Shown: positions 7,222 through 57,811 of the stretch, one piece after another
Layout: the number at the start of each line of letters is the position of its first letter
How positions within the stretch are numbered: the stretch's first letter is position 1
Assembly: GCF_964213995.1 (NCBI RefSeq)
Contig: NC_135811.1
Span: forward strand, 30,814,001 to 30,878,000
Direction: 5' to 3'
DNA: 64,000 bases
From: Mustelus asterias
Lineage: Eukaryota
Translations under genes and position numbers: made by a program
Notes under the pieces: model-generated
Seen by the model: the letters and a program-made list of their open reading frames with translations, nothing else
Told to the model about the DNA's origin: nothing
Database searches by the model: none

Positions 7222-7672
7222 TCTCTGCGGAACTTGGCTATCAGTTTCTGCTCAGGCCAACACACTTCACGACACACGACAACACAGAATCGCTGAGCAG
7301 AAACTGATAGTCAAGTTCCGCACACACAAGGATGGCCTCAACCGGGATCTTAGGTTCATGTCACACTATCTGTAACCCCCACGACTTGCCTGGGCTTGCA
7401 AAACCTTGCTAACTGTCCTGGCTGGAGAGAATACACACCTCTTTAACTTGTGCTTGGCCCTCGCTCCACTCACATTGTCTGTATCTTTAAGACTTGATTA
7501 CCTGTAAAGACTCGCATTCCAACTATTATCTTGTAAATTGAGTTTGTGTCTGTAAATGCCCTGTTTGTGAACACAAGTCCTCACTCACCTGATGAAGGAG
7601 CAGCGCTCCGAAAGCTTGTGCTGCCAAATAAACCTGTTGGATTTTAACCTGGTGTTGTGAGACTTCTTACTG
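7222..7672. mobile_element. Penelope-like element fragment (family A): pseudo-LTR plus short inverted piece
   Basis: 7225-7255 is the reverse complement of about 7293-7323; body is homologous to 57450-57866. Confidence 0.85.
7586..7620 (+). ncRNA. Minimal hammerhead ribozyme motif (Penelope type)
   Basis: CAC-CTGATGA-A-GGAGC AGC GCTCC-GAAA-GCTT-GTG: catalytic core, stem II, stem I CAC/GTG, palindromic stem III. Confidence 0.8.
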
Positions 7673-7782
7673 TACTTTCTGTAAGCCAGTCAGAGTTAGA
7701 TCTTCCATTTTTAGAAAAGCCTTAGCAATTTCCAATGCCATTTTGTATTCTAACCATAAAATATACCTCACATAACTCCAAT

Positions 7783-8135
7783 TGTGGCATAGTGGTTAGC
7801 ACTGCTGTCTCTCAGCGCCAGGAACCTGGGTTCGATTCCTGGCTTGGGTCACTGTCTGTGCAGAGTCAGCACCAGGAACCTGGGTTCGATTCCTGGCTTG
7901 GGTCACTTCTGTGCGAAGTCTGCACTTTCTCCCCGTGTCAACGTGGGTTTCCTCTGGGTGCTCTGGTTTCCTCCAACAGTCTGAAAGACGTGCTGGTTAG
8001 GTGCATTGGCCATACTAAATTCTCCCTCCATGTACCCGAACAGGTGCCAAAGTGTGGCGACTAGGGGCTTTTCACAGTAACTTCATTGCAATGTTAATGT
8101 AAGCCTACTTGTGACTAATAAATAAACTTTTCTTT
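7783..8135 (+). mobile_element. tRNA-derived V-SINE (HE1-like head, alternative tail) with tandemly duplicated B box
   Basis: A box TGGTTAGCA; B box GGTTCGATTCC twice (units 7813-7866 and 7867-7918); V-domain-like TAAATTCTCCC; AATAAA/T-rich tail. Confidence 0.9.
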
Positions 8136-8304
8136 TCTTTTAATTGAGTTGCCCACTTACTCCTTTTTAAGGATCCCACCATTTAACAATAAATCCCAGA
8201 CCAAGTTTTACTATTCAGAATCCAGTAACTTGGTTTCCATTTTCAAAATATCCCAATGAATTACAACTAATCAGCATCAAATAACCCTGTCTCCACATTT
8301 TGAA

Positions 8305-8322
8305 ATCCTGCAACAGTCCCCA
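8305..8322 (-). promoter_or_regulatory. Degenerate tRNA-Pro primer-binding site
   Basis: Minus strand TGGGGACTGTTGCAGGAT, 4 nt after the LTR end; 13/18 match to TGGGGGCTCGTCCGGGAT. Confidence 0.7.
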
Positions 8323-8326
8323 CTTT

Positions 8327-9265
8327 TGTTACGATCCCAGTTGGTGTTACTACTGGATGGGAAGATTCCAGAATGGAACCCTGGCTCAAAGGATCGCAAC
8401 CTAACCCTTTTTTTTAGCAAACCTGGAGGAACAGAGTCACAAGACAACTAATTAGTTCTGGCAACAAGGAAAGAAACATTTATTACACGTTGATTATAAT
8501 ATCGTACGCCTTTCCTCGCCAGCCCCCCCCCATCCTAGCTTCACAAATGTATACCGTTTTCAAAAATAACACCCCACTCTGAGCCAAATGGCTAATGCCA
8601 CTCCAACTGATCTTCGTGGATTTCTCACAATCCCTCCCGATTATCACATGAGAGTTTCCAAACAGCACTCCCAAAAAGATAGGCTTTAAAGTCATCTTTC
8701 AAACAATACTTTCCATCAGCCATTTTCATTAAAAATCCACTCCAAGCTTTCCAACAATCCTGTCAAACAAACTTCAACACTCTGTTTAAGTACCTGTTTC
8801 CTCTGTTCCTTTAACCCCAGACTTCTTGGAAACTTCTCTTTATTTCTCTCGTTTTCTTAATTTGCTGTTCTCCAAGTCTCCTGCACTTGTTTTCTTAGTC
8901 ATTACTCCATGGTATGACTTTACTTCTAACAAAGTGAGAGAGATGTTCCCTCTCTACTCTGTTATAATCAACTGCTGTGTTCAGCTAAAACTACACTCAT
9001 ACAGCCATCCTATGCTAAAGGTGCCCTGGTTATTAAACAATGACTTTATACTTCTCCCAGCTTGTTTGTTTTTATGCTGTAGCCCTCTCTAAGCTCAATA
9101 GAAGCACAGTTTGAAATGAAACCAAACCCAGACATACTTTGTTTAGCATGAATCCAATTCTAATCCTCTTATACAGAACCACTAAATTAAACCCATTTAA
9201 ATTTGTACATTATTTCTAATATTTAACAATACAGATCCTTTAAAACTACCTCTGTTTTCCTGACA
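8327..9265 (-). mobile_element. 5' LTR of the Gypsy element
   Basis: Minus strand TGTCAGG...CGTAACA, followed by the PBS and gag. Confidence 0.75.
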
Positions 9266-9294
9266 CTAGTCAATTTACATCTTGAGATTCTTAT

Positions 9295-11035
9295 AGATTG
9301 CCCGTATTGGCAACCTTATAAATTGTAAATAGGGCCCAAGTCATTTGTACACTGTGCAAACTTGATGTTGAAGTAGAGCGCATCAAAGCCATCCTGCAGG
9401 ATAATGGCTACCCTGGTCAGATCATTGCTTGTTGTATATCATGCAAACTCATGGATGGGCCTAAGCCTGCCACTTTCCAACTGACCTCAGATTACCCGAA
9501 AAGAGCAAGGTGTCTCAAAAGTTTAAGCAACAGGTGAAGGTAGCTGTTTCACACTGCTTCTACACAGTGCAACATGAGTGGTATTCACCACTAACTGGAT
9601 GCTGCCACCAAACCAGAAAGATGTCCTGCCTCTTGCACATATGAGCAAATATGTGGTGTATGAATTTCAGTACTGGAGTGATGCCAGGTATGTAGGCCAT
9701 ATGTCCCAATGACTGGCGGATCATTTCAAATAGCAAGTCCATTTGGCTGTTCATGGCAGGCGAAGTACTAACTGTACCCAAATGGAGTTTAACCCTGATA
9801 AATGTGAGGTGATTCATTTTGTTAGGACTAATTTAAATGTGGATTACAGGGTCAAAGGTATGGTTCTGAAGATTGTGGAGGAACAGAGAGATCTTGAGGT
9901 CTATATCCACAGATCTCTAAAGGTTGCCACTCAAGTGGATAGAGCTGTGAAGAAGGCCTATAGTCTGTTAGCTTTTATTAACAGGGGGTTGGAGTTTAAG
10001 AGCCATGGGGTTATGCTGCAACTGTACAGGACCTTGGTGAGACCACATTTGGAATATTGTGTGCAGTTCTGGTCACCTCACTATAAGAAGGATGTGGAAG
10101 CGCTGGAAAGAGTGCAGAGGAGATTTACCAGGATGCTGCCTGGTTTGGAGGGTAGGTCTTATGAGGAAAGGTTGAGGGAGCTAGGGCTGTTCTCTCTGGA
10201 GTGGAGGAGGCTGAGGGGAGACTTAATAGAGGTTTATAAAATGATGAAGGGGATAGATAGAGTGAACGTTCAAAGACTATTTCCTCGGGTGGATGGAGCT
10301 ATTACAAGGGGGCATAACTATAGGGTTCATGGTGGGAGATATAGGAAGGATATCAGAGGTAGGTTCTTTACGCAGAGAGTGGTTGGGGTGTGGAATGGAC
10401 TGCCTGCAGTGATAGTGGAGTCAGACACTTTAGGAACATTTAAGCGGTTATTGGATAGGCACATGGAGCACACCAGGATGATAGGGAGTGGGATAGCTTG
10501 ATCTTGGTTTCGGATAAAGCTCGGCACAACATCGTGGGCCAAAGGGCCTGTTCTGTGCTGTACTGTTCTATGTTCTATGTTCTATGTAACCAACCTCTGT
10601 TTGCAAAACTCAAAACAAAATGTCTAACATTAGATGTGATTGTGCAGTTGGACAACACTTGCTAAAAAATCAAGATTGTGCAAAGAACTACACTGAAAAC
10701 CAATTCAAGAATTTCAGAATGCGGCCCCCTTATGCATGCTACAAGTCACATATATTCGCATACAAGGACCTGTCCTTTGCAGACAGAAGGAGCATGTCCA
10801 CACCTTGTGCCTTTTGCAACTAACCTAAAGCATGGGGGACAGCCATTACCTGATTCGTTCCTCATGGCAATGCCTTGATGAATCGGAGTTGATCCCCCTG
10901 GTTTGAATTTGAACAAAAGCTTGGCAGTTAATTTTTCTCTGTTGCTTTTTCCATGGTAATGCCTCTACCAATCAGAGTCCACTTGACAACCAATCATCAA
11001 TCTTTTCTCATGCAGTATAAATTATTGTTCCATTG
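9295..11035 (+). mobile_element. Penelope-like element (family C): end of RT plus GIY-YIG, split by a CR1 insertion
   Basis: Translated remnants ILQDNGYP and VVYEFQYWSDARYVGH, then after the CR1 CDCAVGQHLLKNQDC, then a 3' UTR cut by a second CR1. Confidence 0.75.
9781..10586 (+). mobile_element. 5'-truncated CR1 LINE (EHTRMIGSGIA subfamily)
   Basis: C-terminal ORF2 MEFNPDKCEV...; (CTATGTT)n tail; possible TSD TACCCAA/TAACCAA. Confidence 0.95.
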
Positions 11036-14000
11036 ACTGTTGCAGTTGCGGTGACGGAGACATGGTTAAAAGAAGGACAGGACTGGCAGCTGAATATTCC
11101 GGGGTATAAGTGTTTTAGGCGAGACAGAGGAGGGGCTAAAAAAGGTGGGGGAGTAGCGGTATTAGTTAGGGAGCATATTACAGCGGTGCAGAGGGTGGAC
11201 AATTTAGAGGGGTCATGTAATGAGTCGCTGTGGGTGAAGCTCAGAAACAGGAAAGGTGCAATCACTATGCTGGGGGTATACTACAGGCCACCCAACAGCC
11301 CACGAGAAGTGGAGGAATGGATATGTCAGGAGATTCTGGATATGTGCAGAAAAAATAGGGTTGTTGTAGTGGGAGACTTCAATTTCCCTGGTATAGACTG
11401 GAAAGTGCTTAGGGCTGGGGGTCTGGACGGGGAGGAATTTGTAAAATACATACTGGAATGTTCTTTGGAACAGTATGTAGATAGCCCAACTAGAGAGGGG
11501 GCTATACGGGATCTAGTTCTGGGAAATGAGCCCGGTCAGGTCGTCAAAGTTTCGGTAGGGGAACATGTGTCAAGTAGTGACCACAACTCTGTTAACTTTA
11601 GGATAGTAATGGACAAGGACGAGTGTTGTCCTAAGGGTAGGGTGCTAAATTGGGGGAAGGCTAACTATAGCCGGATTAGGCAGGAATTGGTGGCAGTTGA
11701 TTAGGAGAGGCTGTTCAGGGGTAAGTCCACGTCTGGCATGTGGGAGTCTTTTAAGGGACAGTTGATAAGGCTGCAGGACAGGCATGTGCCTGTAAAAAGG
11801 AAGGATAGGAAAGGTAGGATTCGAGTGCCGTGGATAACCAGGGAAATTGAGGATCTGATCAAAAAGAAAAGAGAGGCATACGTTAGGTCATAGAAATCAT
11901 AGAAACCCTACAGTACAGAAAGAGGCCATTCGGCCCATCGAGTCTGCACCGACCACAATACCACCCAGGCCCTACCCCCATATCCCTACATATTTTACCC
12001 ACTAATCCCTCTAATCTACATATCCCAGGACACTAAGGGGCAATTTTAGCATGGCCAATCAACCTAACCCGCACATCTTTGGACTGTGGGAGGAAACCGG
12101 AGCACCCGGAGGAAACCCACGCAGACACGAGGAGAATGTGCAAACTCCACACAGACAGTGACCCAAGCCGGGAATCGAACCCAGGTCCCTGGAGCTGTGA
12201 AGCAGCAGTGCTAACCACTTGTGCTACCGTGCCGTCCAGGCAACTGAAAACAGATGGAGCTCTGGAGGAATACAGAGAGAGTAGGAAAGAACTCAGATGG
12301 GGAGTTAGAAGGGCAAAAAGAGGTCACGAAGTGTTCTTGGCAGACAGGATTAAGGAGAATCCTAAGGCATTTTATTCATGTGTTAGGAACAAAAGAGTTG
12401 TCAGGGAAAAAGTCAGACCTCTCGGGGGCAAAGGAGGGGAATTATGCTTAGAACCCAAGGGAACAGGGGAGATCCTAAATGAGTACTTTGCATCGGTATT
12501 CACAAAGGAGAGGGACTTGTTGACTGGGAGTGTCTCAGAGGGAGGTGTTGACCCGTTAGAGAGAATCTCCATTACAAGGGAGGAAGTGTTAGGTTTTTTA
12601 GGTAACATTAAAACTGACAAATCCCCAGGGCCTGATGGCATCTATCCTAGACTGCTCAGGGAGACAAGAGATGTAATTGCTGGGCCTTTGACAGAAATAT
12701 TTGTCTCTTCATTGGACACAGGTGAGGTCCCTGAGGATTGGAGGATAGCGAATGTGGTACCGTTATTTAAGGAGGGTAGCAGGGATAACCCGGGTAATTA
12801 TAGGCCAGTGAGCTTGACGTCCGTGGTGAGGAAGTTGTTGGAGAGGATTCTTAGAGACAGGATGTATGCGCATTTAGAATGGAACAATCTCATTAGTGAC
12901 AGACAGCATGGTTTTGTAAGAGGGAGGTCGTGCCTTACAAATTTGGTGGAGTTTTTTGAGGAAGTGACAAAAACGGTTGACGATGGAAGGGCCATGAATG
13001 TCATCTATGTGGATTTCAGAAAGGCATTTGACAAAGTCCCTCATGGCAGGTTGGTTAAGAAAGTTAAGGCTCATGGGATACAAGGAGAGGTGGCTAGATG
13101 GGTAGAAAACTGGCTTGGCCACAGGAGACAGAGGGTAACAGTCGAAGGGTCTTTTTCCGGCTGGAGGTCTGTGACCAGTGGTGTTCCACAGGGCTCTGTA
13201 CTGGGACCTCTGCTATTTGTGATATATATAAATGATTTGGAAGAAGGTGTAACTGGTGTTATCAGCAAGTTTGCTGATGACACGAAGATGGCTGGACTTG
13301 CGGATAGCGATGAACATTGTCGGACAATACAGCAGGATATGGATAGGCTGGAAAATTGGGCGGAGAAATGGCAGATGGAATTTAATCCCAATAAATGCGA
13401 AGTGATGCATTTTGGAAGAACTAATGTAGAGGGGAGTTATACAATAAATGGCAGAGCCATCAAGAGTATAGAAACACAGAGGGAACTAGGTGTGCAAGTC
13501 CACAAATCCTTGAAGGTGGCAGCACAGGTGGAGAAGGTGGTGAAGAAGGCATATGATATGCTTGCCTTTATAGGACGGGGTATAGAGTATAAAAGCTGGA
13601 GTCTGATGTTGCAGCTGTACAGAACGCTGGTTAGGCCACATTTGGAGTACTGCATCCAGTTCTGGTCGCCGCACTACCAGAAGGACGTGGAGGCTTTAGA
13701 GAGAGTGCAGAGAAGGTTTACCAGGATGTTGCCTGGTATGGAGGGTCTTAGCTATGAGGAGAGATTGGGTAAACTGGGGTTGTTCTCCCTGGAAAGACGG
13801 AGAATGAGGGGAGACCTAATAGAGGTGTACAAAATTATGAAGGGTACAGATAGGGTGAACGGTGGGAAGCTTTTTCCCAGGTCGGAGGTGATGATCACGA
13901 GGGGTCGCGGGCTCAAGGTGAGAGGGGCGAGGTATAACTCAGATATCAGAGGGACGTTTTTTACACAGAGGGTGGTGGGGGCCTGGAATGCGCTGCCAAG

Positions 14001-14173
14001 TAGGGTGGTGGAGGCAGACACGCTGGCATCGTTTAAGACTTACCTGGATAGTCACATGAGCAGTCTGGGAATGGAGGGATACAAACGAATGGTCTAGTTG
14101 GACCAATAAGCGGCACAGGCTTGGAGGGCCGAAGGGCCTGTTTCCTGTGCTGTACTGTTCTTTGTTCTTTGTT
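11036..14173 (+). mobile_element. CR1 LINE ORF2 (APE + RT), young, interrupted by a SINE
   Basis: ETWL, GDFN and SDH motifs; one stop at 11702; open frame 12234-14097 with [22 protein letters not shown]; (TTGTTCT) tail. Confidence 0.95.
11890..12233 (-). mobile_element. HE1-type V-SINE inserted in CR1 ORF2
   Basis: Minus-strand A and B boxes, GGCCATGCTAAAATTGCCCC V domain, CR1-like (TTCTATGA) tail, GTC duplicated at both junctions. Confidence 0.93.
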
Positions 14174-18503: not shown

Positions 18504-18825
18504 GGGCAACAGGTGGCACAGTGGTTGGCACTGCTGCCGCACAGTTGTTGGCACTGCTGCCTCACAGCGCCGGAGACACGGGTTCCTGTGTGGAGTTTGC
18601 ACATTCTCCCCTGCCTGTGTGGGTTTCCTGTGGGTGCTCCGATTTCCTCCCACAGTGTAAAGGTGCGTGGGTTAGGTTGATTGGCCATGCTAAATTGCCC
18701 CTTTGTGTCAGAGGAATTAGGAGGGTAAATATGTGGGGTTACGGGGATAGGGCCTGGTGGGATTGTTGTCAGTGCAGGCTCAATGGGCCAAATGGCCTCG
18801 TTCTGTACTGCAGGGATTCTATGAT
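18504..18825 (+). mobile_element. HE1-type V-SINE
   Basis: TSD TCACA (18499-18503, 18826-18830); duplicated A-box region; V domain; CR1-like tail. Confidence 0.9.
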
Positions 18826-19129
18826 TCACATTTCAGTCATGTTTTAACTGCAATCAGAATAGATTTGAGATATGTACTGGAGTTTCTATTTTAAAGCCTT
18901 AGTAAGTCTGTGGTAGCTGTTTGTTTAATAAAGATATATATATATTATATGTTATATACTATATATGTATATATTTCATTATATATTAACATCGTTCAGC
19001 AATGGTTCAGTTGGTAGCATTTTCACTTCTGAGTCTGAATGTTGTGGGTTCACTCTGAAACTCAAGTACAACAATTCTAGACTGACACTTCAATGCAACA
19101 CTGACGGAATGCTGCACTGTTATAGATAC

Positions 19130-19337
19130 TGGCAGGGTTTTCTTGCCCTTCCTGCCGGCAGGATCTTCTAGTCCCACTGACCGTGCACCCCTGTCATGGG
19201 TTTCCCAGCAGTGTGGAGTGGGTTCAATGGGAATCCCATTGACTGCGGTTGGACCAGAAAGTCCTGCCACTTGCCAATGACAAGCCACCCCCCCACCGCT
19301 GAGAAATACGCCATATGGGGGCCAGAGAATCCCACCC
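19130..19337. mobile_element. MITE-like repeat, family 1
   Basis: Homologous to 5014-5195; ends in GAATCCCACCC. Confidence 0.55.
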
Positions 19338-19352
19338 ACTGTTTTCAGTGGA

Positions 19353-19469
19353 TGGGCAGGATTTTACAGTCTCATTCGTAAAATCCTGCCTGAGGTCAAT
19401 GGACCTTTCCACGGTCCGCCCCTCACCCACTCCGATTCCTGTGGCGGACAGGACGGTAAAATTCCAGCC
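19353..19469. mobile_element. MITE-like repeat, family 2
   Basis: GGGCAGGATTTTAC...GTAAAATTCCAGCC inverted ends; core GAGGTCAATGGACCTTT shared with 20115-20250. Confidence 0.6.
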
Positions 19470-19551
19470 GATACGTTAAAAGACGTTGTGTCAACCCTCC
19501 TAACTTTATGTTACAGATCCCAAGGCACTATTTTGAAAAAGAGCAGCAGAG

Positions 19552-19866
19552 TGGGTGGCACAGTGGCAAATACTGCTGCCTCACAGCGCCAGGGACCTGG
19601 GTTTGATTCCCAGCTTGGGTCACTGTCTCTGTGGAGTTTACACATTCTCCCCATGTCTGCACTGGTTTCCCCTGGGTACTCCGGTTTCCTCCCACACTCC
19701 AAAGATGTACAGATTAGGTGGATTGGCCGTGCTAAATTGCCCCTTACTGTCAGGGGGATTGGCTAGGGTAAATGTATGGGGATAGGGCCTGGGTGGGATT
19801 GTGATCGGTGCAGACTCGATGGGCTGAATGACTTGCTTTTGCACTGTACGATTCTATGATTCTATG
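19552..19866 (+). mobile_element. HE1-type V-SINE
   Basis: A and B boxes, GCTAAATTGCCCC, (ATTCTATG) tail. Confidence 0.9.
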
Positions 19867-20114
19867 AGTTACCCATAGTGTCCTGGCCAATATTTAATCC
19901 TCCAACCAATAGCACAAAAATATTTTTACATTGCTTTTTTGTGGGACTTATAGTATGCAAGTTAGCATCTGTGTTTCCCACAATACAAGGATGGCTACGC
20001 ATCAAGAAGTATCTAATTCATTGAGAAACATTTAAGATGGTTGTGAAAGGTACTATATATAAACAAGGCTTTCTTTCGTTTTTCCCATGGTGCTGATTCA
20101 ACCGAGATTACAAG

Positions 20115-20250: not shown

Positions 20251-20829
20251 AGAGTTTATTGTGTGGGCATCAGGAGTGCCAGCCCAAGATTTATCACTCC
20301 TGTGACAGAGTGCTCACGTCTATCGATGGACTACACCACTGAGTCATCATTTGAGACTTTGGTTTTGCAGAATTTGCAATACTTCACAAACATGGTGTCT
20401 TGATAACATAGTAGCAGGAGCTATGACATTTATTATTAAAAAATGAACATTCCTTTTAACTCAATAACCTCTTTTACACAAGTTTACTCATCTTGTCTTC
20501 GGTGTTTTAAAACTATGTACCATCTGGAATTTTCATTAAATCAAATAAGAAATCTTTTCTTGATTACACCTGATGCAGGGATGAGGTACAACATCTTGCC
20601 AGTAGGTTGTGCTGTGTAACACCACATCACCACAGTCCCTTTTGCCATATGTCTAAATCAAAACCAACTTCAGCATTTTCACGAAACAAGATACAACCTT
20701 GAGTTTCTCATCATCCACAGTACACACCCATGGAAATCTGCCTTATTATTTACCCAGTAATATACAATTTTTTTCACAACAATGAGATAAAGGACAATTT
20801 TAACCCCCGCCTGCCAAGAACAGTGTAAG

Positions 20830-20970
20830 AAGTTTAACAACACCAGATTAAAGTCCAACAGGTTTATTTGGTAGCAAAAGCCACACAAGCTTTCGGAGCT
20901 CCAAGCCCCTTCTTCAGGTGAGTAAACTTCTTACTGTGTTTACCCCAGTCCAACACCGGCATCTCCACAT
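20830..20970. mobile_element. Penelope family A mini-insertion (inverted pLTR end plus 3' tail) with 15-bp TSD
   Basis: CAAGAACAGTGTAAG at 20815-20829 and 20971-20985. Confidence 0.88.
20884..20920 (-). ncRNA. Minimal hammerhead ribozyme motif
   Basis: Minus strand CAC-CTGAAGA-A-GGGGCT TGG AGCTCC-GAAA-GCTT-GTG. Confidence 0.8.
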
Positions 20971-21151
20971 CAAGAACAGTGTAAGCAGAGGGGTTTAAAA
21001 TCACTTCTGTGACCAGCTGACTCCCCCATCATTCCAACTGACCTGTGCGGTTGTGTGTCCCTTGGCAAGTGGGGTCCTAATTAAAAGGTTAAAGTACCGC
21101 TTTGATATGGTCGTACCAACACGCACCACATTTTAACTATAAATTGCGGAT

Positions 21152-21460
21152 GAAAGTAAAGTTTATTTATTAGTCACAAGTAGTCTTACATTAACACTGC
21201 AATGAAGTTACTGTGAAAATCCCCTGGTTGCCACACTCCGGTGCCTGTTCAGGTGCACGGAGGGAGAATTTAGCATGACCAATTTACCTAACCTGCATAT
21301 CTTTGGACTGTGAGAGGAAACCGGAGCACCCAGAGGAAACCCATGCAGAGACGGGGAGAATGTGCAAATTCCACATAGACAGTGACCCAAACCAGGAATT
21401 GAACCTGGGTTCCTGGTGCTGTGAGGCAGCAGTGCTAACCACTATGCCACCGTGCCACCC
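21152..21460 (-). mobile_element. V-SINE (alternative-tail family)
   Basis: Reverse-complement homolog of 7783-8135. Confidence 0.9.
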
Positions 21461-22532
21461 ATTGATCTTCCCATTCTTGAATCTGCAAGCATATCCTTGC
21501 TGGATTAGCATTTGAGAAGTCCTGATGCAGTATTAAGGGAGTGGGGGGTGTTGTCTATTCTGTAGCCCACTGAATCACAGGATCTTTGTTGCCTGGATCA
21601 CCAGGTGTGTTTCAATCTTCCAGACTGCTGTAACTACTTGCAACACGGCCTGCTGTTTGCTGGGCTGGTGGGGATGGATCAGTGGACTTCAAAGGCATTA
21701 AAGCTCTGAATATTTATACTGCTGGCTCCTTTCAGTCAGCAAAAAAGGAGGTACCGGACACATGTAGTTCACAGCTACACCACCAGGCAGGACATCACCT
21801 TCCCCACTGGCCACAGCAATCAACAGGAGAGGCCTCATGGCTTTGTAGCAATTGCTGCCTATGATAGTTTGCAGCACAGAATTGACTATATGCATGTGGC
21901 CAGTGAGGCACCAGAACACAAGCCAGCAGGGTCAGTTATAGAATAGGATGCCAGTCTAACAATATTCCGTCTGATTATAGGAACATGCAGAGCTGTGCAA
22001 TTTATCCAGCAAGTTTCCTAGATGCTTTTGTTCTCAGATATGCTTCCATCCCCCTCTTACTCAATCTTAGGAGCAGCAAGACAGGATGGCAGCTAGGAAA
22101 CAACTGATAGCTCCAGACAACTGACTACTGATGCTCATGCACAATTCCACCATTCCAAAACTACTCCATTACTATTTGTAAGGAGCATTACAAATCTGAA
22201 TTAAATGTTTGAAAATTGAAACTGCTAATTAAGTTTTTCCTCCACTTCTAAAAGCGTGTGTGGAAATCAGTGTAGCAATGAGTTTTCTAGGAACAAGATT
22301 GGTGTTACTATTGCTATACTTGTTTGAATAACTATAGTTGCATTAACTTGTGATTCTTAGTTATTTTATGCTCTTAGTATTCATAACCGGGTAATATAAA
22401 TTGTATCAAAGCCTTACAAAACATTTAAAAAGCAGTTTTCAGATGCATGATTATGTTAGAAATTTTCCGAATTATTTTATTAGTGACCACTTGTAATTTC
22501 ATTACATCATCTGCAGAAAACCTCAAGAGTAA

Positions 22533-23143
22533 GTTTATTAACAGGGGGTTTGAGTTTAAGAGCTGTGGGGTTATGCTGCAACTGTACAGGACCTTGGTGA
22601 GACCACATTTGGAATATTGTGTGCATTTCTGGTCGCCTCACTATAGGAAGGATGTGGAAGCATTAGAAAGAGTGCAAAGAAGATTTACCAGGATGCTGCC
22701 TGGTTTGGAGGGTAGGTCTTATGAGGAAAGGTTGAGGGAGCTAGGGCTGTTCTCTCTGGAGCTGAGGAGGCTGAGAGGCGACTTAATAGAGGTTTATAAG
22801 ATGATGAGGAGGATAGATAGAGTGGACGTTCAGAGACTATTTCCTCGGGTGGATGTAGCTGTTACTAGGAGGCATAACTATAAGGTTCATGGTGGGAGAT
22901 ATAGGAGGGATGTCCGAGGTAGGTTCTTTACTCAGAGAGTGGTTGGGGTGTGGAATGGACTGCCTGCTGTGATAGTGGAGTCAGACACTTTAGGAAATTT
23001 CAAGCGGTTATTGGATAGGCACATGGAGCACACCAGAATGATAGGGAGTGGGATAGCTTGATCTTGGTTCGGACAAAGCTCGGCACAACATCAAGGGCTG
23101 AAGGGCCTGTACTGTGCTGTACTGTTCTATGTTCTATGTTCTA
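22533..23143 (+). mobile_element. 5'-truncated CR1 LINE (EHTRMIGSGIA subfamily)
   Basis: FINRG...RPHLEYC...; (CTATGTT) tail. Confidence 0.95.
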
Positions 23144-24269
23144 CTCAAACAGAGGTTCAAATACATGGACTACTCACTAGACTGTCTACAATATACCTCC
23201 TGATAGCTCTCATGATGTGAAATGAGCAGTATGACATTGCAGACGTGTCTGAATGTGAAAGAAGAAGAGATGCAATAGTCATTACCGAATGAGGAAGACG
23301 TGGGGAAAGGAGAGAAAGCAACAGAGGAAGTAGGACTACATCAGTATCTTGCCTCCAGCGGTGACAAAAATCGGCTCCTAAATCAACAAATCTAGTGAGT
23401 CCCACACACCCGAGAACTTTCAAAGAGATTCGGAAATAACGGTCCCAATCATAATCTTAAAGTATTTAATTATTCGTTTAAATAGCGCTGGTGGGGTAGT
23501 CCTGCTTGCTGCTGAACAACCTGTCTACTTTGCATACTTCCAGTGGACACTCCTGGCATGAATACTAGTGCCTTCCTCAAAATGGCGTCTATCACAGCTC
23601 ACACCAGGAATGTGCACACGCACAGCACAGACTACATATGGAGGCAAAATAGCACTGGTGGCAACAGAAAACAGGTGCTAAGGAGTCTAATTTCATGGCC
23701 AAAATCTGGTGTGAATTCATTCCAGAGCAGACAACCTAACGAATTGTATATTCTGCTTTTGCAATTGGATGACTGTTGAACTTAAAGTGTATCGGATTTC
23801 ATAATTCTGTGGGCACAGAATTTACAAAATATAACCCACTCTATGGAATTTTCTCTGCTCCACAGATTCTCTTTAGGAAAAGAATGAAAATCTTGATTCC
23901 CTCTTCATTGTTGGCAGTGATATGATTGTTGTGCTGTTTTGAGTTATTTTTAGTGAATTTCTTCATACATTTAGATGCAAGAAATTCCTCAATCTTGGAA
24001 TGATAGACTGCGAGAAGTGAACTGGAAATGGACTCTACAGTGAGCCTTTTAGTTATTGTGACTTATTCTATTTCTCAACCATATGCAGTTACTATTAATG
24101 TCAATGCACTATAGTATGATTTTATTTATAACTGATGAATCAGGATACTATGCAACCATTCTGTGGCTTTCTGAGACCAGCAGGCTTTATTTTGCTAATA
24201 TTTCACCAATGCAAATTATTTTTAAGGTTGCCGTGTGGCAATGTGCCAACACAGAATTGAAGGAACGCA

Positions 24270-24830
24270 AGAAACAAAATACTGCAGATGCTGGAAATCT
24301 GAAATAAAAGCAGAAAATGCTGGTATTACTGAGCAGATCAGGCAGCATCTGTGGAGAGAGAAATGGAGTTCGTGTTTCAAGCCCATGACCAGTCATCAGA
24401 ACTGGGAAGAATTAGAAATGTAATAGACTTTGAGCATGTGAAAGGGGCAAAGTGGGAAGAAAAAGCTGGATGTCCAATCTCTCTACATTTCCACCCCTAC
24501 TAGGACACTCTGGGAGCTTTCCACTTCTTCCTTGAATAGGAGCCTGACCAGTCCCCATCGACCAGCCAAATTGAACTTGTTCTCAACGTGAAAAACTTTA
24601 GCTCCAATCATTTCTTTCAAATAAAAGGTGTTTCTATGGGTATCTACATATGTCTAAACAATGCTTGCGTTTTTGCCCATTGTCTTTGGTCCCCACCGTA
24701 ATCTTCATTTCCCAGCCATTGATTCTATCCTCCCCCGGTAAAGGCCAGAGAAACTGTTTGCAATCTTCATGTCATTTGTTTGGCCCTTAGGTGAGCTTCT
24801 GACCACGATCACAGGACTTCCAATTTCCAC
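24270..24830. mobile_element. Penelope family B fragment: inverted pLTR with hammerhead remnant plus RT pieces
   Basis: Minus 24367-24403 reads AGTT-CTGATGA...GAAA-CACG-AACT. Plus-strand RT remnants DVQSLY (about 24470) and FFQIKGVSMG (about 24611). Confidence 0.7.
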
Positions 24831-24831
24831 T

Positions 24832-28879: not shown

Positions 28880-29380
28880 GCATGAACCCTTTTGTCACAT
28901 AATCTTTCCTGACTTCCACCCTACCATAGATAGGCCTTTCCTTTTGCTCTTTTTTTCCCCGGACCCCACCACCTGCCCCACCTTTCGTTTTTCTTAAATC
29001 TATTACATATCTAATGTTTTCCCAGTCCAGATGAAAGGACCTGGAACTAAAATGTGAGAGCTTTATTCATGGGACTGCCAATCGCGCGTTGGTTGTGCGG
29101 TACCTGGTCCACATTCCTCTTGACTGTACACACGCTGATTTCTATTTGAACTGGAATTTAAAATGTAGTGTCACCGCTATTGGCTCCTCAATCAAGCTGT
29201 CGCCTAGAGTATTATCCATTGGTTTATTCCCGTCTTTTATGCTGCTTTTGTTTTTGCTGAATGTTGGTGGCGGGGAACTGGCTGACCGATGGTTCAAAGT
29301 CATAAAAATGTGAGGGTGTATCTCTCTCCACAGACGCTACCTGACGTGCTGAGTATTTCCAATGTTTACTGTTTTCATTC
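28880..29380 (+). mobile_element. Penelope family B 3' end interrupted by an inverted copy of neighbouring DNA
   Basis: Decayed hammerhead CAGATGAAAGG...AAAATGTG near 29028-29056; family tail resumes at about 29320 (tctctctccacagacgctacctgac). Confidence 0.6.
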
Positions 29381-39279: not shown

Positions 39280-40485
<1,206 letters not shown>

Positions 40486-47800: not shown

Positions 47801-50605
47801 ACACGGTTAATGCGTTATTTTAATGGTTCACATATCTGTACATCAAGAAATACTCAGATTATGGGATAGGTGCATTTTATTCGATGAACCGGCTAACCAG
47901 CTAGTTCCTTAATTAAACCGAGGATTCAATTAGACAGCCATAAATTAACCCATTTCTTAATGGTACATCTCCCTCAACTAATCTAGCTGCGGTGTTGGAA
48001 ATTTTGTCATTGATTAATTTATTCATTCACTAATCAACGAACTGTCCAATGAGCACTAAATACATCGTGTATTACTCACACTTGCATATCTGTTGCTGAT
48101 AGTAAATAAATTGTCGAGGTTTGCAATGTCCTGACAACTGCCCATGTTGCGCCACTTGGCTGTTCTATCAGATCCATTACAATTGTATCAGCAACATTTG
48201 GGGAGCGGCAAGAATTAAGATAAACTGTGTTTGAGACTGTTATAATATGTGGATAATTAACAAAATTGCATTTTCTATGCTTGAGACACTTTGTTTTGAA
48301 TACTTCTTTCCACTCCGTATTCCTTGGCAAATTGTTAAATACGCACATTGGATGCAACTACAGAAATATACAGCTGCGTCCTTCCATTCATTTGGTTCTA
48401 CGTCTAGAATGTTATTGCTACAACCAGACATATCTTCAAATACTTTTATGAAACGCAAGTTCCGGAACCTTAATTCCAATCAGTTTGTTTCTATCCCTGA
48501 TCTCAAGAATAGAACAATGAAGTGGCCAAAACGCTCTAAAGTCCGTGGCGAATTAATGATCGATTCAAATATAAAAGAGGGTTCATTTAGCATCAATTAT
48601 TCAATATCGTCCATTCCAATAGGAATGTCAAGTAACTGTATCTGGCTATTGGTAATCACAGTCCAATTGAATACTAATGACGAGCTTTAAAATTCCGATT
48701 ACTAAGTTGTTTATCTTATTTTTCCTCCTGTCATATCAATAATCTGTTGAATGTCTGTTGCGATCTCATATTGCATCTTTTCCAGCGTCGCCATGATGCC
48801 TGACGCCAAGAAATGTGCATCCAATGTAATTGCTGTAACTGGTACATGACCCTCTAACCGCACTTAACCTTCGATTTTAGTCAGTTTATAACTTACAAAA
48901 CCAACTGCTCATAAATTCAGTCGGGTGCTAACACAACTGTGGTGCCAAGCCCACAACAAAATAAAGAGAAGCATCCCTTCAGTTGCTCAAATTCCAGCCT
49001 CCAGTATCAGCTGCTTCTTGTGACCAGTCCTCATCAAAATATAGATTGGTGACCATGTTTTACCCTTTACCCCGTCAACAGTCACATTTTGGTAAAGTTT
49101 AACTAATCCAACCTACATCAGACTCACCCAGCGTGATCAGTTTTCAATCTATATTAGCACCCCAGCTTTTTTTAACTTGGAAACTAAGTTTGATTGCAGT
49201 TAAATAACCGAACGTATTTAGCCATCGGTTAAGAAAACTAGCACCAGCTAGGTATTTTTATAGACGTCGTTAGTAACCAAATGTCGCTTCAACCAGAAAC
49301 TATCATTATCCAAATTCATTCAACGTTTGTTATTAGGCTATGCCTGTTCGCAACCCGAACATAACCGCTTTAACTTTCCACAGAATAGTAACCAGACTTG
49401 ACCCAAACTCCCAATCAGTGGGGATCTTGATATGCAGCCATTGTGCATTAGGAAATTCAGACACCAAACCAAACTCATTCCAAATCTCCAATGTCTTTTG
49501 TTATTCGCTGAATCTGTCACCAGCTTCCACTACGGTGTTACAAGGCTCCTGGTGTGATCATGATTACCCGTCTCCTAACCTCCAAACTAAACAAAACAAA
49601 AAAGCTCAACTGCAGTCCAATTTGCATTTTGAAAAAAATAAACGTTTCATGAATCAATTCCAGTATTGAAACAGAACCCAACGTTTTGCTGGTATCACTG
49701 TATCGCTAACTGCGCCAGTCACAGCCTAGTGACTGCTCACACCACCAATCCTCACAACTACATTATAAAACGGAGGAAAGCTTGCACCAAATCGGGTCGA
49801 ATTAGTCATAATGGGCTGAAGAATTATTCCCCATGTGCACGATCTCTCAATAAGGCAAACAAAATGAATTTTGCTATTTAATTCCCAATTGGTGTTATTC
49901 ATTTTCAAATTCTGATAACATTTTATAAATAGTGAATATTCAGATTCATGACTTTCCACCCATCCCCACCTAGCCCATTCCCACTCCCATGCTCTGTCGA
50001 GAAAAAGCAACATCCCAACAGGACACAGGTACAAAGCCGTTAGCAATTTGATCTATTTTATAGGCATGTAACTGGGAGCAGTCCCATTCCTGATTTTCGG
50101 TGAGCAATAACCAGCCTTCTCGGAGCCTAGTATCGAGTTAGACGGTTACACTGTCAAGTGACCTGCACCACAGCCTATCGTTCATTAAAACTTAAAACCA
50201 CCAAACAAATCAGAATCACCACGTGCGCGTATTGGGGCCGCACCTATTGTCACACAATATTGCATCATCTTCCTCCAAAGCGAGAATATATTTTAACATC
50301 ACAAACATCAACAATCAATCACATTCTTGGGCTAACCTAATCATCCCTCAGCTTGTGTAAAGTTCAAAATTTCCGGGACTGACTGCTGTTTTTGATTGGC
50401 TGCAGCAACTCAAACCTACATGCAAATCAGCCAACGCCACTGACTAGGCAGCAGATCAATACAGGTTTACGGGGCGCAGAGAATGCATTCAGCCCGTGCA
50501 TGCTCAGGGAAAACGACTGCAGAACAAAGCCACAACAATATACGCCGTCTAACACTTCTGCAAACGATTGTAAGTAAGTTTATTTTCTTTTTTTATGAAC
50601 ACAGA

Positions 50606-50870
50606 ATGAGTAACAAAGACGACATCACTAAGTGTTCTCCAGCTCCGATCTCCAGCTTTACGATACAGTCCATACTCGGGACCTCGTCGGAGGAAGAACG
50701 CACAGGTTGCAAAGACAATGCCAAAGTAAATGCCAGGAAGCGCTGTTTATCCGACTCCTCGGACGAAGAGTTAACCGAGGAAGGATACAAAGACCTAGCC
50801 TGCTTCTGTTCTGACTCTGGCCCCGCAGAGCCCTGTCGCAGACACCAGACGATCAGCTACACTTGTGTGA
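50606..50870 (+). CDS. hmx2: Homeobox protein HMX2 (Nkx5-2), coding exon 1
   Basis: MSNKDD...PISSFTIQSILG (eh1); donor A|GTAAGT, phase 1. Confidence 0.93.
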
Positions 50871-51938
50871 GTAAGTAAAGCGAAATCATTTTTATTTATC
50901 GAGCAGCATTATCCTCAACTCCCTTTTGTGTATAGTTTGGAGAATGATTTTGAGAAAACAGTGCGCTTGCCCTTAATAATGTTTAACTTTAAATGAAAGA
51001 GTCTTTATTTATAGCTCTCTCTAGATATATTGTTCCGTCCTATCGTATATTCATGTCTCTTACTCCATTCTCGCTAACGCCCAAGCTAATACCAACATTG
51101 TAAACCCATTTAAATCAACAATGCCTCTTACATATCAAGCGAAACTATTAGAAACTCTCTGCAATCAGATAGCATCTGTGGGCTCTAATACTTTGGATGG
51201 ATTTGGTCGGGGAAGCTACTTTGTGCAAACATAAAGGAATTCCATATTTTACCGCGGACAGAAAGCACTCGCATGATTTTTCTTTGACACCAGCAACTTT
51301 GCATTTCAAAAAACACAGCCATTTAGTGAATAGAATTGAAGGGACAGTTACGTTATTACTGGAACACCAGGTAAGAGACTGCGACAGCCGTGCAGTACCT
51401 GCCATCATTCACACCAGATTGCTTCAGGATTATAATCCATTTACATGACTACTTACTTTAATCACATTTAATATTGCGAATTATGATACAAATCAAGCCA
51501 TATACTTCGTCCTGTTGATCTTGAAGGAAGCCCGACAAACACAGGCAAGCGGCGGCATTTAGCAAAATTCTTGGCAAAAAATACAGGTGAGGTTGTCCGC
51601 TAATTCGACGTACATATATAGATAGCTACAGAGGTGGAAAATATGTTTTCTTATCACCTAATCTTAAAAATCTTCACTCCCCTTGCTGCCCGTTGGTATA
51701 TTTATAATATAGTTTTCTTTGTATTTGAAGGCAGTTTCTCATATCAAGTTTTTATGCAAAGATGCATGTCATACATTCCAGACCGGATTAAAAACATCAA
51801 AATAATTGTAAATATGTGTGTCGATCCCTTATTCTTGTCATATATAGATTTAACAAAATATATATAAAGGGGCAGGATGAAAAGAGTACAGATTGGCTAT
51901 AATATATCTGAGAAATGCCTTATTTTTCTGCTTTGTAG

Positions 51939-52480
51939 GTAATACTAAAGGAATTGGCACCGCTGGGCAGGAAAGTGCAGAGAGAAGGCAGCAGCAGTAC
52001 CTGTCGCAAGATGGTCAGGTTTACAAGGAAGAAAAAGAAAAGAACTGCATGCAGACATCAACAGACAGACAGAGGGAGGGAGACAGACAAGGGAACCCGA
52101 CAAAGAAGAAAACTCGCACGGTTTTCTCTCGCAGCCAGGTTTACCAGCTAGAATCCACCTTCGACATGAAACGTTACCTGAGCAGCTCGGAGAGAGCTTG
52201 CCTCGCCACCAGCCTCCAGCTCACAGAGACCCAGGTCAAAACCTGGTTCCAGAACCGCAGGAACAAGTGGAAGCGACAGCTCTCAGCGGAACTCGAGGCG
52301 GCCAACATGGCTCACGCGTCAGCGCAGACTCTAGTAGGAATGCCTCTAGTTTTCAGAGACAATTCCCTTTTGAGGGTTCCAGTCCCCAGATCAATTGCGT
52401 TCCCTGCTCCTTTGTACTACCCAGGCAACAACCTTACAGCTCTTCCCTTCTACAATCTCTACAACAAAATCGAGTACTGA
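51939..52480 (+). CDS. hmx2: HMX2, coding exon 2 (homeodomain)
   Basis: Acceptor ctttgtag in matching phase; homeodomain with QVYQLE and VKTWFQN; HMX2-type C-terminus [24 protein letters not shown]...YNLYNKIEY. Spliced product 268 aa. Confidence 0.97.
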
Positions 52481-55400: not shown

Positions 55401-55589
55401 TATTTGAACTGTGTAGCCATCCAAAGTTGCAGAGCGTGACAAAGTTGCATTCTTGCCCTACAGGGCAAACCTGCAGTATAAATTGTTAATTCGTCTCCAA
55501 ATTAGCAGGACTTTTCTTTTGTGTGTGCTTTTTTAAAAAAAAATACACTCGTGTTGTTTTACAATCATTCTCCCGCGATTTGCAGTTTT

Positions 55590-56300
55590 AAATGCGGGTT
55601 CTCGCGCCTTCAAGTTGAAGTTGGGCTGTTGAAGCTTGAGGGAATGAAGCTGGGCGGGTGGGTGTCACGTGAGCTGTCCCAGCCAGCCCCGGGGGGGTGG
55701 GGGAGCGGTGACGTCACATCCTCAACCCAAACGGGCGCTTGAGCGGCCCGAGTTCAAACTGACCAATCAGGATTAAGGATTGTGAAGGGTGCCGGCGCGA
55801 GCGGAGCAGCTTCTGGAACAATCGGAGCGGAATCAGAGTGCGGTTTGAATTCAGTTACTAGTTCAAAACAGAGAGGAAACCGCGGAGGAGGAGGTAGGTA
55901 ATGGAGGGCTCTGCGCACTTCACTTAGTGCGGCGCCATCGCTGGCACCACCGGCATTATGTCTCTCTCAGGCAGCCCGTTGTGCCTGAGCTTGGCGGCCG
56001 GGACGATGCAGTGAAACGGTCCGGCCAGTCGACCCCCCCCCCCCCCCCCCCCAGCCCGCTGCGGGTAGGCCGCAGGCCTGAGCCGGCGCATGCGGCTCAG
56101 TTTTCAGTGCGAGTCCGCCCCCGGGCTCCCCGGCTTTACGGGGCGAGCATGCGGCGGGGTTTTTTTTTACGGCGATTCCACCTCCCATGTTAACGCTTCC
56201 GCCAAATAAATGGAGGATGTGCGGTGGGGGTTTGGGATTGGGTTCGAAATTCAGCGCCAACATGCAAATCAGTTTGACACGGCGGCCATTTTAATTGTCA
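55590..56300 (+). promoter_or_regulatory. bub3: Bub3 CpG-island promoter and non-coding first exon (donor about 55894 or 55898)
   Basis: CpG-rich; CACGTG 55666; TGACGTCA 55709; CCAAT 55763; TTTGAA 55844; GAG|GTAGGT. Confidence 0.75.
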
Positions 56301-56898
56301 GGCGCTGCTCCAATTCAGCCTCCAAACCGTGATACTTTCCTTCAAGGAGCAATCCCTTTCAACAGTACAATGTGAAACTATTGAAGTTGCTATATCAATC
56401 AGCTTTTATTACCCGTCATGTGGTTAATACGAACATTTACAGCCTGGCAATTCCACAAATCTAATAAAGGGGAAGCGTACAACTTAGTGCATTAATATTT
56501 CTCGTTTTCCACTGGCACCATTTTGTTTATGGGCAGACAGCATCTCTGCTTGTTTCCCAAACAGACTGGAACACTGATGCCTAACATCCCTGGCCTATTT
56601 GACCTGGAGCCAGGTAGGCCCAGATAACAAAGCAAATAGAGCCGAGAACTTCCATTAGTATAATGTAGAAACGTTTCGTAATTTGGTTGACAAAGATGTA
56701 GGGGCCGAACATGGACATCAAGTTAAAGAGATGACCAAAATTAGTAAAAGAAGTGGGTTTTAAAGGTGGAGAAGGAGCTGAAGAGGTAGCTGCCAATGGA
56801 GAGGAGTCATGATGCGGAGATGCTGGCGTTGGACTGGGGTAAATACAGTAACCTGGTTTTAAAACTCAAAGTCCAACAGGTTTATTTGGTAGCAAATG

Positions 56899-56935
56899 CC
56901 ATTAGCTTTCGGAGCGCTGCTCCTTCATCAGATGG
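56899..56935 (-). ncRNA. Minimal hammerhead ribozyme motif
   Basis: Minus strand CCAT-CTGATGA-A-GGAGC AGC GCTCC-GAAA-GCTA-ATGG. Confidence 0.82.
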
Positions 56936-57774
56936 AGGGATCTTGGGTTCTCAAACAGGGTATACAGAGACACAAAATCAAGTTACAGAATACTGATTAG
57001 AATGTGAATCTTTACAGCTAATCAGGTCTTAAAGATACAGACAATGTGAGTGGAGGGAGTATTAGGCACAGGTTAAAGAAATGTGTATTGTCTCCAGACA
57101 GGACAGCCAGTGAGATTCTGCAAGTCCAGGAGGCAAGTTGTGGGGGTTACTGATAGTGTGACATGAACCCAAGATCCCGGTTTAGGCCGCCCTCGTGTGT
57201 GGAACTTGGCTATCAGTTTCTGCTCAGCGACTCTGCGCTGTCGTGAAGGCCGCCTTGGAGAACGCTTACCTGAAGATCAGAGGCTGAATGGCTGTGACCG
57301 CTGAAGTGCTCCCCCACAGGAAGAGAACAGTCTTGCCTGGTGATTGTCGAGTGGTGTTCATTCATCCGTTGTCGTAGCGTCTGCATGGTTTCCCCAATGT
57401 ACCATACCATGTACCAAAATCTGATCTTCAGGTAAGCGTTCTCCAAGGCGGCCTTCACGACACACGACAGCGCAGAGTCGCTGAGCAGAAACTGATAGCC
57501 AAGTTCCGCACACATGAGGACGGCCTAAACCGGGATCTTGGGTTCATGTCATACTATCGGTAACCCCCACAGTTTGCCTACTGGACTTGCAGAATCTCAC
57601 TGGCTGTCCTGTCTGGAGACAATACACACTTCTTTAACCTGTGCCTAATGCTCCCTCCACTCATATTGTCTGTATCTTTAAGACCTGATCAGCTGTAAAG
57701 ATTCGCATTCTAATCAGTATTCTGTAACTTGACTTTGTGTCTCTGTATGCCCTGTTTGAGAGCAGATATCCACT

Positions 57775-57811
57775 CCATCTGACGAAGGAGCAGCGCTCCG
57801 AAAGCTAATGG
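57775..57811 (+). ncRNA. Minimal hammerhead ribozyme motif
   Basis: CCAT-CTGACGA-A-GGAGC AGC GCTCC-GAAA-GCTA-ATGG. Confidence 0.82.

What the first reader, a model, noticed from the sequence alone, without database searches (positions are those of the whole stretch)
7586..57811. Family of minimal hammerhead ribozymes with compensatory covariation, carried by Penelope elements
Seen in sequence: four copies (7586-7620 +, 20884-20920 -, 56899-56935 -, 57775-57811 +) keep CUGANGA and GAAA invariant. Only N7 varies in the core (T, A, T, C). Stem I switches from CAC/GTG to CCAT/ATGG, and stem II from GGAGC/GCTCC to GGGGCT/AGCTCC, with pairing kept. Stem III is reduced to the palindrome AGCU, with cleavage triplets CUU or CUA. 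Established: Penelope pLTRs encode such minimal hammerheads, proposed to cleave as dimers, and an extra A after A9 is tolerated in the CChMVd viroid hammerhead. Inference: the structure is under selection in this shark PLE lineage, and whether these copies cleave is untested.
Basis: partly seen in the sequence, partly recalled or inferred. Interest (0 to 1): 0.8.

Follow-up and report, generated by a model that had tools for sequence, protein, structure and literature searches.

The report
Penelope hammerheads with a cleavage footprint
These are small self-cutting RNA motifs of a known kind carried by a very abundant jumping gene, and in one young branch many inserted copies begin exactly where the RNA should cut itself, which may be a record of the ribozyme working in the living animal.

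Summary
The four motifs are real and sit 215 nt behind the GIY-YIG stop codon of a Neptune-type Penelope-like element (PLE). They are Cervera-2014 minimal hammerheads, a known kind that this scan has met in other genomes. Corrections: the four copies are three insertions (copies 3 and 4 are the two arms of one insertion with a 13-bp target-site duplication); their covariation is one stem I event; stem II changes only to a wobble plus an added pair; H17 also varies. Genome-wide there are at least 130,288 exact motif matches (35 per Mb). Subfamily-level stem changes keep pairing and G17 is rare (1,075 of 113,781), but inserted copies decay neutrally (lethal G12A 13,760, tolerated C11.1U 15,032). 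So selection acted on source elements, not on these copies. New lead: in the young subfamily of copy 2, 1,431 of 49,657 arms are 5'-truncated exactly at the predicted scissile bond, against 132-337 at five neighbouring positions. Replication is partial (subfamily D 86 vs 31; A 288 vs 302; C confounded). That may be a genomic footprint of cleavage in vivo; a promoter or an RT stop at the same base is not excluded. No cleavage assay or RNA evidence was obtained.

The parts
7586..7620 (+). Minimal hammerhead, copy 1 (3-bp stem I, 5-bp stem II, CUU; predicted cut after 7617)
7265..7670 (+). PLE 3' arm holding copy 1: decayed GIY-YIG end, 3' UTR, hammerhead, tail ending at the near (short) end site
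7226..7255 (-). 30-bp stub of the inverted arm of the copy 1 insertion; the rest is missing
20884..20920 (-). Minimal hammerhead, copy 2, young subfamily B (6-bp stem II with G-U, CUU; predicted cut after 20887)
20825..20971 (.). Two-armed mini-insertion holding copy 2: minus arm ends at the short site, plus arm (about 20931-20971) is tail only and ends at the long site; 14-bp duplication 20816-20829 / 20972-20985, 5 nt of it shared with the element end
56899..56935 (-). Minimal hammerhead, copy 3, subfamily A (4-bp stem I, CUA; predicted cut after 56903)
57775..57811 (+). Minimal hammerhead, copy 4, subfamily A (CUA; predicted cut after 57807)
56807..57866 (.). One head-to-head PLE insertion holding copies 3 and 4; minus arm ends at the long site, plus arm at the short site; arms 92% alike over 424 bp and fold into one duplex as RNA
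56794..56806 (+). Left 13-bp target-site duplication
57867..57879 (+). Right 13-bp target-site duplication
57240..57404 (-). GIY-YIG endonuclease coding remnant (Pfam PF01541, E 0.011, below the curated cut-off)
57420..57563 (+). C-terminal end of the PLE ORF with stop codon at 57561-57563, 215 nt before C3 of copy 4

Best explanation
The motifs are minimal type I hammerheads in the pseudo-LTR of one very abundant Neptune-type PLE family (unit about 3.0 kb; single RT plus GIY-YIG ORF; hammerhead 215 nt after the stop and 97 nt before the next unit's ATG). Shown: insertions are mostly 5'-truncated, head-to-head and two-armed, with one arm ending about 60 nt and the other about 97 nt past the predicted cut, inside 9-14-bp duplications; so the usual template ran through an uncut hammerhead. 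Shown: source elements kept the fold, while inserted copies, including these four, decay like neutral DNA. Inferred: the ribozyme is slow or conditional (needs a second copy through the AGCU palindrome, or the element's protein), cuts a minority of element RNAs at the unit boundary, and those cut RNAs are sometimes reverse-transcribed, leaving arms that start at the scissile bond. The four window copies are passengers; copies 3 and 4 would mask each other as a duplex in a read-through transcript.
For: RT and GIY-YIG in one ORF upstream of the motif, with DKG and CX4CxxC linker motifs; direct repeats with two hammerheads 3,005-3,012 bp apart in 3 of 3 plus-strand copies measured; 81 of 90 head-to-head pairs long+short, matching the two RT start sites and tail of PMC11167929. 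Structure: 91.8% of cells paired, 33 double-change cells vs 11.4 +/- 2.6; C-G 131, U-A 108, U-G 10, C-A 10, other 4 of 263 arms at pair 2.1:1.1; stepwise wobble shift in subfamily B; a 2,299-copy subfamily with G-C to A-U in stem II (99 of 100 listed); H17 A 124, U 110, C 29, G 0 of 263 and G 1,075 of 113,781 genome-wide. Neutral decay: G12A 13,760, C11.1U 15,032. Truncation peak: 1,431 at the cut vs 337, 288, 280, 292, 132 at -4, -1, +1, +2, +4 (n = 49,657).
Against: Only 3 of 9 pairs have any double change, no more than shuffled (204 of 500), and independent events are few. The tail next to the motif is at least as conserved (157,190 exact 34-mers), so conservation alone does not single out catalysis. 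With flanks, the hammerhead fold is the minimum-energy fold in 1 of 4 copies and z-scores are -1.65 to 0.12. The truncation peak is unclear in subfamily A (288 vs 302), partly a microhomology class in D (36 of 86), and 0 of 30 near-full-length copies start at the cut. PMC11167929 found the anole hammerhead dispensable for insertion in vitro and no RNA-seq ends at its cut. Pfam hits are below curated cut-offs.
Confidence: 0.8

Rival explanations
1. The fold is kept for a non-catalytic reason (binding site for the element's protein, promoter or translation signal next to the RT start sites); the truncation peak is a capped transcription start, an RT stop at the three-way junction, or a cut by a host nuclease at the same base.
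For: Hammerhead mutants do not impair insertion in vitro (PMC11167929); Naiad PLEs prosper without hammerheads (PMC8557442); the adjoining tail is near-invariant; peak weak in subfamily A; a competing hairpin covers the core in copies 2 and 4.
Against: A binding site would not predict free exchange of A, U and C but not G at position 17. The peak is one base wide and lies on the scissile bond, not at the foot of stem I (-4 is low). Subfamily D, with a 9-nt shorter spacer to the tail, leans the same way (50 vs 31 after removing the microhomology class).
Confidence: 0.15
2. The motif is an inherited relic with no present constraint; apparent covariation is a few hitch-hiking changes multiplied by amplification.
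For: Stem I covariation is one event; number of covarying pairs not above shuffles; copies decay neutrally.
Against: 52 of 168 upstream UTR columns differ among five subfamily consensuses while the only core positions that differ are N7 and H17; the hypermutable CpG at C11.1-G12 is kept in all five; contigs from four other organisms show the same variable sites (H17, 1.1, 2.1) and no common core change.
Confidence: 0.04
3. The short copies are a self-propagating non-autonomous retrozyme family (tandem circles processed by the hammerheads) rather than truncated PLE insertions.
For: Very short elements are common; a preprint derives animal retrozymes from PLE pseudo-LTRs (10.64898/2026.07.22.740005).
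Against: Copies are head-to-head with heterogeneous 5' ends and own duplications, not head-to-tail arrays; 46 of 128 tail-selected arms lack part or all of the core (a few of these being indel artefacts).
Confidence: 0.01

Closest known systems
Minimal hammerheads (min-HHR) in pLTRs of metazoan Penelope-like elements (Cervera and De la Pena 2014, PMC4209133; read: abstract, results, discussion, bioinformatic methods; supplements not seen)
   Same: Type I topology, short stem I, G10.1-C11.1, extra nucleotide between 9 and 10.1, palindromic 15.2-16.2 without helix III, many consensus families, mostly single truncated copies; reported for fish Xena, Poseidon and Neptune.
   Different: Copy number at least 130,288 here vs about 4,000 (coelacanth) and 9,000 (Xenopus) there, by different methods; stem II of 5-6 bp; sharks are not named in the parts read; no truncation analysis in the parts read.
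Neptune/Nematis-type EN+ PLEs (Craig et al. 2021, PMC8557442; passages read)
   Same: Single ORF RT then GIY-YIG, DKG motif, CX2-5CxxC linker, partial tandems, inverted 5'-truncated copy, 30-40-bp tail at one end only.
   Different: Clade was assigned here by the linker motif only, with no tree; the paper calls hammerhead function in EN+ PLEs unclear.
Anole Poseidon PAc (Frangieh et al. 2024, PMC11167929; main text read, supplements not seen)
   Same: Two internal RT start sites downstream of the hammerhead give short and long ends; uncut RNA is the main template.
   Different: There the ORF starts inside the hammerhead (here 97 nt after the cut); no RNA-seq ends were found at the cut, whereas here genomic junctions peak at it in one subfamily.
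R2 retrotransposon HDV-like ribozyme (PMC3774820; start of abstract seen in a search listing only)
   Same: Works like: ribozyme cut coincides with the 5' junction of inserted copies.
   Different: HDV fold, defines the 5' end of full-length R2; here only about 3% (raw) of arms of one subfamily start at the cut.
Axolotl non-LTR retrozymes (Cervera and De la Pena 2020, PMC7229834; passages read)
   Same: Type I hammerheads at about 120,000 copies, cleave better as dimers.
   Different: Canonical hammerheads in tandem non-coding repeats; here minimal motifs in dispersed inverted PLE fragments.

Membership tests
Hammerhead ribozyme (type I, minimal) | Core CUGANGA ... GAAA ... UH in type I order | tested here: met
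   4 of 4 window copies; 62 of 86 parsable tail-selected arms
Hammerhead ribozyme (type I, minimal) | Stems I and II kept through sequence change | tested here: met
   91.8% paired, 33 double-change cells; few independent events
Hammerhead ribozyme (type I, minimal) | H17 not G | tested here: met
   0 of 263; 1,075 of 113,781
Hammerhead ribozyme (type I, minimal) | Self-cleavage after H17 | not testable with these tools
   Indirect only: truncation peak in subfamily B, partial replication
Canonical Rfam hammerhead families | Stable helix III and a score at the family threshold | tested here: not met
   No hammerhead among 7 matches at E <= 10; helix III is only the AGCU palindrome
PLE min-HHR (Cervera 2014) | Extra nucleotide between 9 and 10.1, G10.1-C11.1, palindromic 15.2-16.2 | tested here: met
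   A at the extra position in 258 of 263 arms
PLE min-HHR (Cervera 2014) | Located in both pLTRs of full-length elements | tested here: met
   Two motifs 3,005-3,012 bp apart in L157/L243, L166/L244, L175/L245
EN+ Penelope-like element | Single ORF with RT and C-terminal GIY-YIG | tested here: met
   L047 426-aa frame: RVT_1 E 1.5e-6, GIY-YIG E 3.9e-4, both under curated cut-offs; DKG motif
EN+ Penelope-like element | Inverted truncated arm, tail at one end, target-site duplication | tested here: met
   81 of 90 pairs long+short, 65 of these 81 with a duplication of 7 nt or more
Neptune clade | CX2-5CxxC linker between RT and EN | tested here: met
   CX4CxxC in translated copies; shared with Nematis per PMC8557442
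Neptune clade | Phylogenetic placement of the RT | not tested
   No reference proteins were fetched
Non-LTR retrozyme | Head-to-tail arrays of short non-coding monomers | tested here: not met
   Dispersed head-to-head insertions; no genome-wide tandem search was run

The most novel reading that the evidence does not exclude
The single-base excess of 5' truncations at the predicted scissile bond in subfamily B (2.9% of 49,657 arms raw, 4 to 11 times the neighbouring positions) is a fossil record of PLE hammerhead self-cleavage in the germline: cut RNAs with a 5'-OH end were reverse-transcribed by both arms of the insertion machinery. This would be genome-scale evidence that a minimal, helix-III-less hammerhead works in vivo, and peak height per subfamily would be an in vivo activity ranking of natural ribozyme variants.
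Probability: 0.5. Interest if true: 0.7.

Novelty: new member of a known kind. Interest (0 to 1): 0.5.

Why it matters
The motif class is known, so the catch itself is ordinary. Whether PLE minimal hammerheads cut in vivo is an open question: PMC4209133 has only weak in vitro activity, PMC8557442 calls the function unclear, and PMC11167929 saw no RNA ends at the cut. A genome with more than 130,000 copies turns insertion junctions into a read-out of template 5' ends, and one subfamily shows a sharp signal at the cut. It names the exact variant and base to assay, and a count that can be repeated in any PLE-rich genome.

Tried and rejected
Rfam scan: no hammerhead hit. Sequencing runs: no RNA holder listed; contigs cannot show RNA ends. 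caught a CR1 LINE end instead of the PLE 5' end (30 loci mostly uninformative; their chance PLE arms entered the 320-arm pool). One search had its exclusion letters in the wrong order (423 matches, mostly point mutants) and was not used. One search used a mis-registered stem II and was replaced. Three of 68 distinct tail-selected sequences were dropped before alignment because they were truncated inside the motif and mis-parsed. Idea that the two arms come from different RNA molecules: inconclusive; 13 of 18 pairs fall in the same cluster (21% by chance), median arm-arm distance 3.7% vs about 3% to the nearest other arm. Selection on inserted copies: rejected. Thermodynamic support for the fold: none; simple co-folding did not give the dimer fold, which it cannot represent. 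Full-length copies starting at the cut: 0 of 30. Subfamily-specific controls downstream of the cut could not be run, so the -4, -2 and -1 counts pool subfamilies B and C. Subfamily C test is confounded by B (523 vs 281). Literature: searches listed no paper on shark PLE hammerheads or on PLE truncations at the hammerhead cut; most listed papers were seen as listings only, and subscription journals are not covered.
Full report
Observation. The four motifs are present base for base at the given coordinates. The loose core pattern gives 13 window matches against 5.68 expected, and Rfam lists no hammerhead among 7 weak matches, as expected for a motif without helix III. The family pattern has 113,781 exact matches in the 3.68-Gb genome and 0 for the reversed control. 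A second class with U at 11.2 adds 16,507, giving at least 130,288, or 35 per Mb. The 34-nt tail behind the motif has 157,190 exact matches. In 399,800 bases taken without regard to the motif there were 33 tail-bearing arms and 10 strict motifs, which extrapolates to roughly 300,000 arms.

Anatomy in the window. Copies 3 and 4 are the two arms of one head-to-head insertion (56807-57866) between 13-bp duplications. The arms are 92% alike over 424 bp and, as one RNA, pair with each other through the whole motif. Upstream of the motif lies the end of a GIY-YIG frame with its stop 215 nt before C3. Copy 2 is a 147-bp two-armed insertion whose second arm is tail only. Copy 1 keeps a 30-bp stub of its second arm. 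So the window holds three insertions, not four.

The element. Longer copies encode RT and GIY-YIG in one frame (RVT_1 E 1.5e-6, GIY-YIG E 3.9e-4, both just under Pfam's cut-offs), with a DKG motif and a CX4CxxC linker. By the description in PMC8557442 (passages) that linker marks the Neptune and Nematis clades; I built no RT tree. Of 30 near-full-length copies, 8 reach upstream past the predicted cut; in the three plus-strand ones measured, the two motifs lie 3,005-3,012 bp apart in direct orientation, and the ATG is 97 nt after the cut. Of 90 head-to-head pairs, 81 have one arm ending at a near site and one at a far site about 38 nt further on, 3 scored intermediate and 6 were symmetric; 65 of the 81 but 1 of the 6 show a duplication of 7 nt or more. 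This is the known one-sided tail (PMC8557442, PMC3846280; passages) and matches the two internal RT start sites of anole PAc (PMC11167929; main text). Because both end sites lie downstream of the cut and most arms extend upstream through it, the usual template was uncut there.

Is the structure selected? Among 263 of 320 arms that could be parsed (a pool partly chosen by the motif), pair 2.1:1.1 is C-G 131, U-A 108, U-G 10, C-A 10, other 4. More events appear genome-wide. Subfamily B gains a wobble and a pair, then moves the wobble from pair 3 to pair 2 through a two-wobble intermediate. A 2,299-copy subfamily has A-U for G-C at pair 4 (99 of 100 listed). On 65 tail-selected sequences 91.8% of cells pair and 33 show a double change (shuffles 11.4 +/- 2.6), but the number of pairs with a double change (3 of 9) is not above shuffles, and relatedness alone can inflate the cell counts. 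Across five subfamily consensuses 52 of 168 upstream columns vary while the core varies only at N7 and H17. H17 is A 124, U 110, C 29, G 0 of 263, and G in 1,075 of 113,781 genome-wide. One pair is not kept: pair 5 is C-A in some recurrent variants. Contigs from four other unnamed organisms hold the same element with the same variable sites. Against selection on the copies themselves: at the CpG C11.1-G12, the core-breaking G12A (13,760) is nearly as common as the wobble-forming C11.1U (15,032); 62 of 86 parsable tail-selected arms have an intact core. That G12A abolishes and C11.1U tolerates activity is from general hammerhead knowledge, not from a call. Folding energies give no support: with flanks the hammerhead fold is optimal in 1 of 4 copies, and a competing hairpin covers the core in copies 2 and 4.

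A possible footprint of cleavage. If cut RNA were sometimes copied, arms should start at the scissile bond. In 128 tail-selected arms, 9 start within one base of it, about three times the local rate (several are ambiguous or are partners). I then counted genome-wide, in subfamily B (49,657 arms reach the cut), arms whose element sequence stops at a given base, requiring three mismatching letters beyond. Counts: at the cut 1,431; one base upstream 280; two 292; four 132; one base downstream 288 with a tighter filter; four downstream 337. The two downstream counts include subfamily C and are upper bounds for B. Scaled for filter width the peak is still 3.5 to 11 times its neighbours. The +4 and -4 positions end in the same base as the cut, so the end base does not explain it; a junction class with one base of microhomology makes up about a third of the listed hits both at the cut and at -4. 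Twenty loci covering the first 21 listed hits were fetched: all are two-armed mini-insertions, 19 show a duplication by eye (one flank out of view), and the partner arm never runs more than 2 nt past the cut. No matching partner control was fetched, and partners often end near each other anyway. Replication is partial. Subfamily D, with a 7-nt instead of 16-nt spacer: 86 vs 31, or 50 vs 31 without 36 junctions explained by stem I microhomology. Subfamily A: 288 (tighter filter; about a third palindromic junctions) vs 302, no clear peak. Subfamily C: 523 vs 281, confounded with B. None of 30 near-full-length copies starts at the cut. A capped start site, an RT stop or a host nuclease at the same base cannot be excluded. 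No RNA holder was listed.

Mechanism. Most likely (0.8): a slow or conditional ribozyme at the boundary of tandem PLE units, needing a partner copy through AGCU or the element's protein (dimer activity in PMC4209133; protein-assisted cleavage in PMC11167929), maintained in source elements, cutting a minority of transcripts. Steps shown: location, architecture, constraint at subfamily level, neutral decay of copies, truncation peak in B. Steps inferred: catalysis, dimer or protein dependence, cut RNA as template.

Comparison and novelty. Every listed trait of the Cervera 2014 minimal hammerhead is met (parts 1-2 of 4 read; supplements not seen, and they could name sharks or more counts). That paper gives about 4,000 and 9,000 motifs for coelacanth and Xenopus; axolotl retrozymes reach about 120,000 (PMC7229834, passages). 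A 2026 preprint reports retrozymes in one chondrichthyan (part 1 and passages). Earlier notes of this scan describe the same kind in other genomes, and one describes a single insertion starting at the cut (seen after my counts). Searches listed no paper on PLE truncations at the hammerhead cut; the nearest analogy is R2, whose ribozyme cut is the 5' junction (PMC3774820, listing only). Supplementary Fig. S2 of PMC11167929, not seen, shows genomic ends of PAc and could bear on this.

Verdict. Real, a new member of a known kind. The motif alone would score about 0.25. The truncation peak makes an open question directly testable and raises the score to 0.5.

Noticed in passing
window 39280-40485 and 50444-52480 (+): Two tandem homeobox genes (PF00046, E 5e-22 and 2e-21; 52% identical over 168 aa). 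From recall they look like HMX3 and HMX2.
   Followed up: partly
window about 55640-56250 and 61857-62051 (+): CpG-rich promoter with a likely first exon, and a WD40 coding exon (Rae1 among the longest matches); from recall BUB3, in the HMX3-HMX2-BUB3 order. The copy 3/4 insertion would lie in its first intron and form a 424-bp hairpin in the pre-mRNA.
   Followed up: partly
window about 56850-56867: Micro-inversion of about 20 bp with a few bases lost inside the tail of the copy 3 arm.
   Followed up: no
window 6395-7126 (-): 243-aa frame with a decayed zinc-knuckle-like and a protease-like motif, recalled as LTR-retrotransposon-like; no Pfam match. Copy 1 lies beside it.
   Followed up: partly
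window 1950-4882, 9734-14173, 22429-25984, 30833-31576, 58614-59528: Many CR1-like LINE fragments (label recalled); PLE insertions elsewhere often sit inside such LINEs.
   Followed up: no
window 7784-8135, 11888-12233, 18519-19867, 21153-21464, 59805-60228: A family of 250-340-bp SINE-like repeats, about 80% alike.
   Followed up: no
window 29050-29316 and 29703-29973: 267-bp inverted repeat, 94% identical, not PLE-derived by self-comparison; possibly a DNA transposon.
   Followed up: no
G000, listing: 36 of 86 subfamily D junctions join the end of one arm at the cut to the stem I 5' strand of the other arm, using stem I complementarity as microhomology.
   Followed up: partly
window 20870-20893 (-) and 57800-57817 (+): A competing hairpin pairs GAAAGC with the GCUUUU just after the cut and hides the core; could be an off-state.
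   Followed up: partly
tail-selected arms: A second cluster of 5' ends 35-36 nt upstream of the cut, just outside stem I (12 of 128; some are indel artefacts).
   Followed up: no
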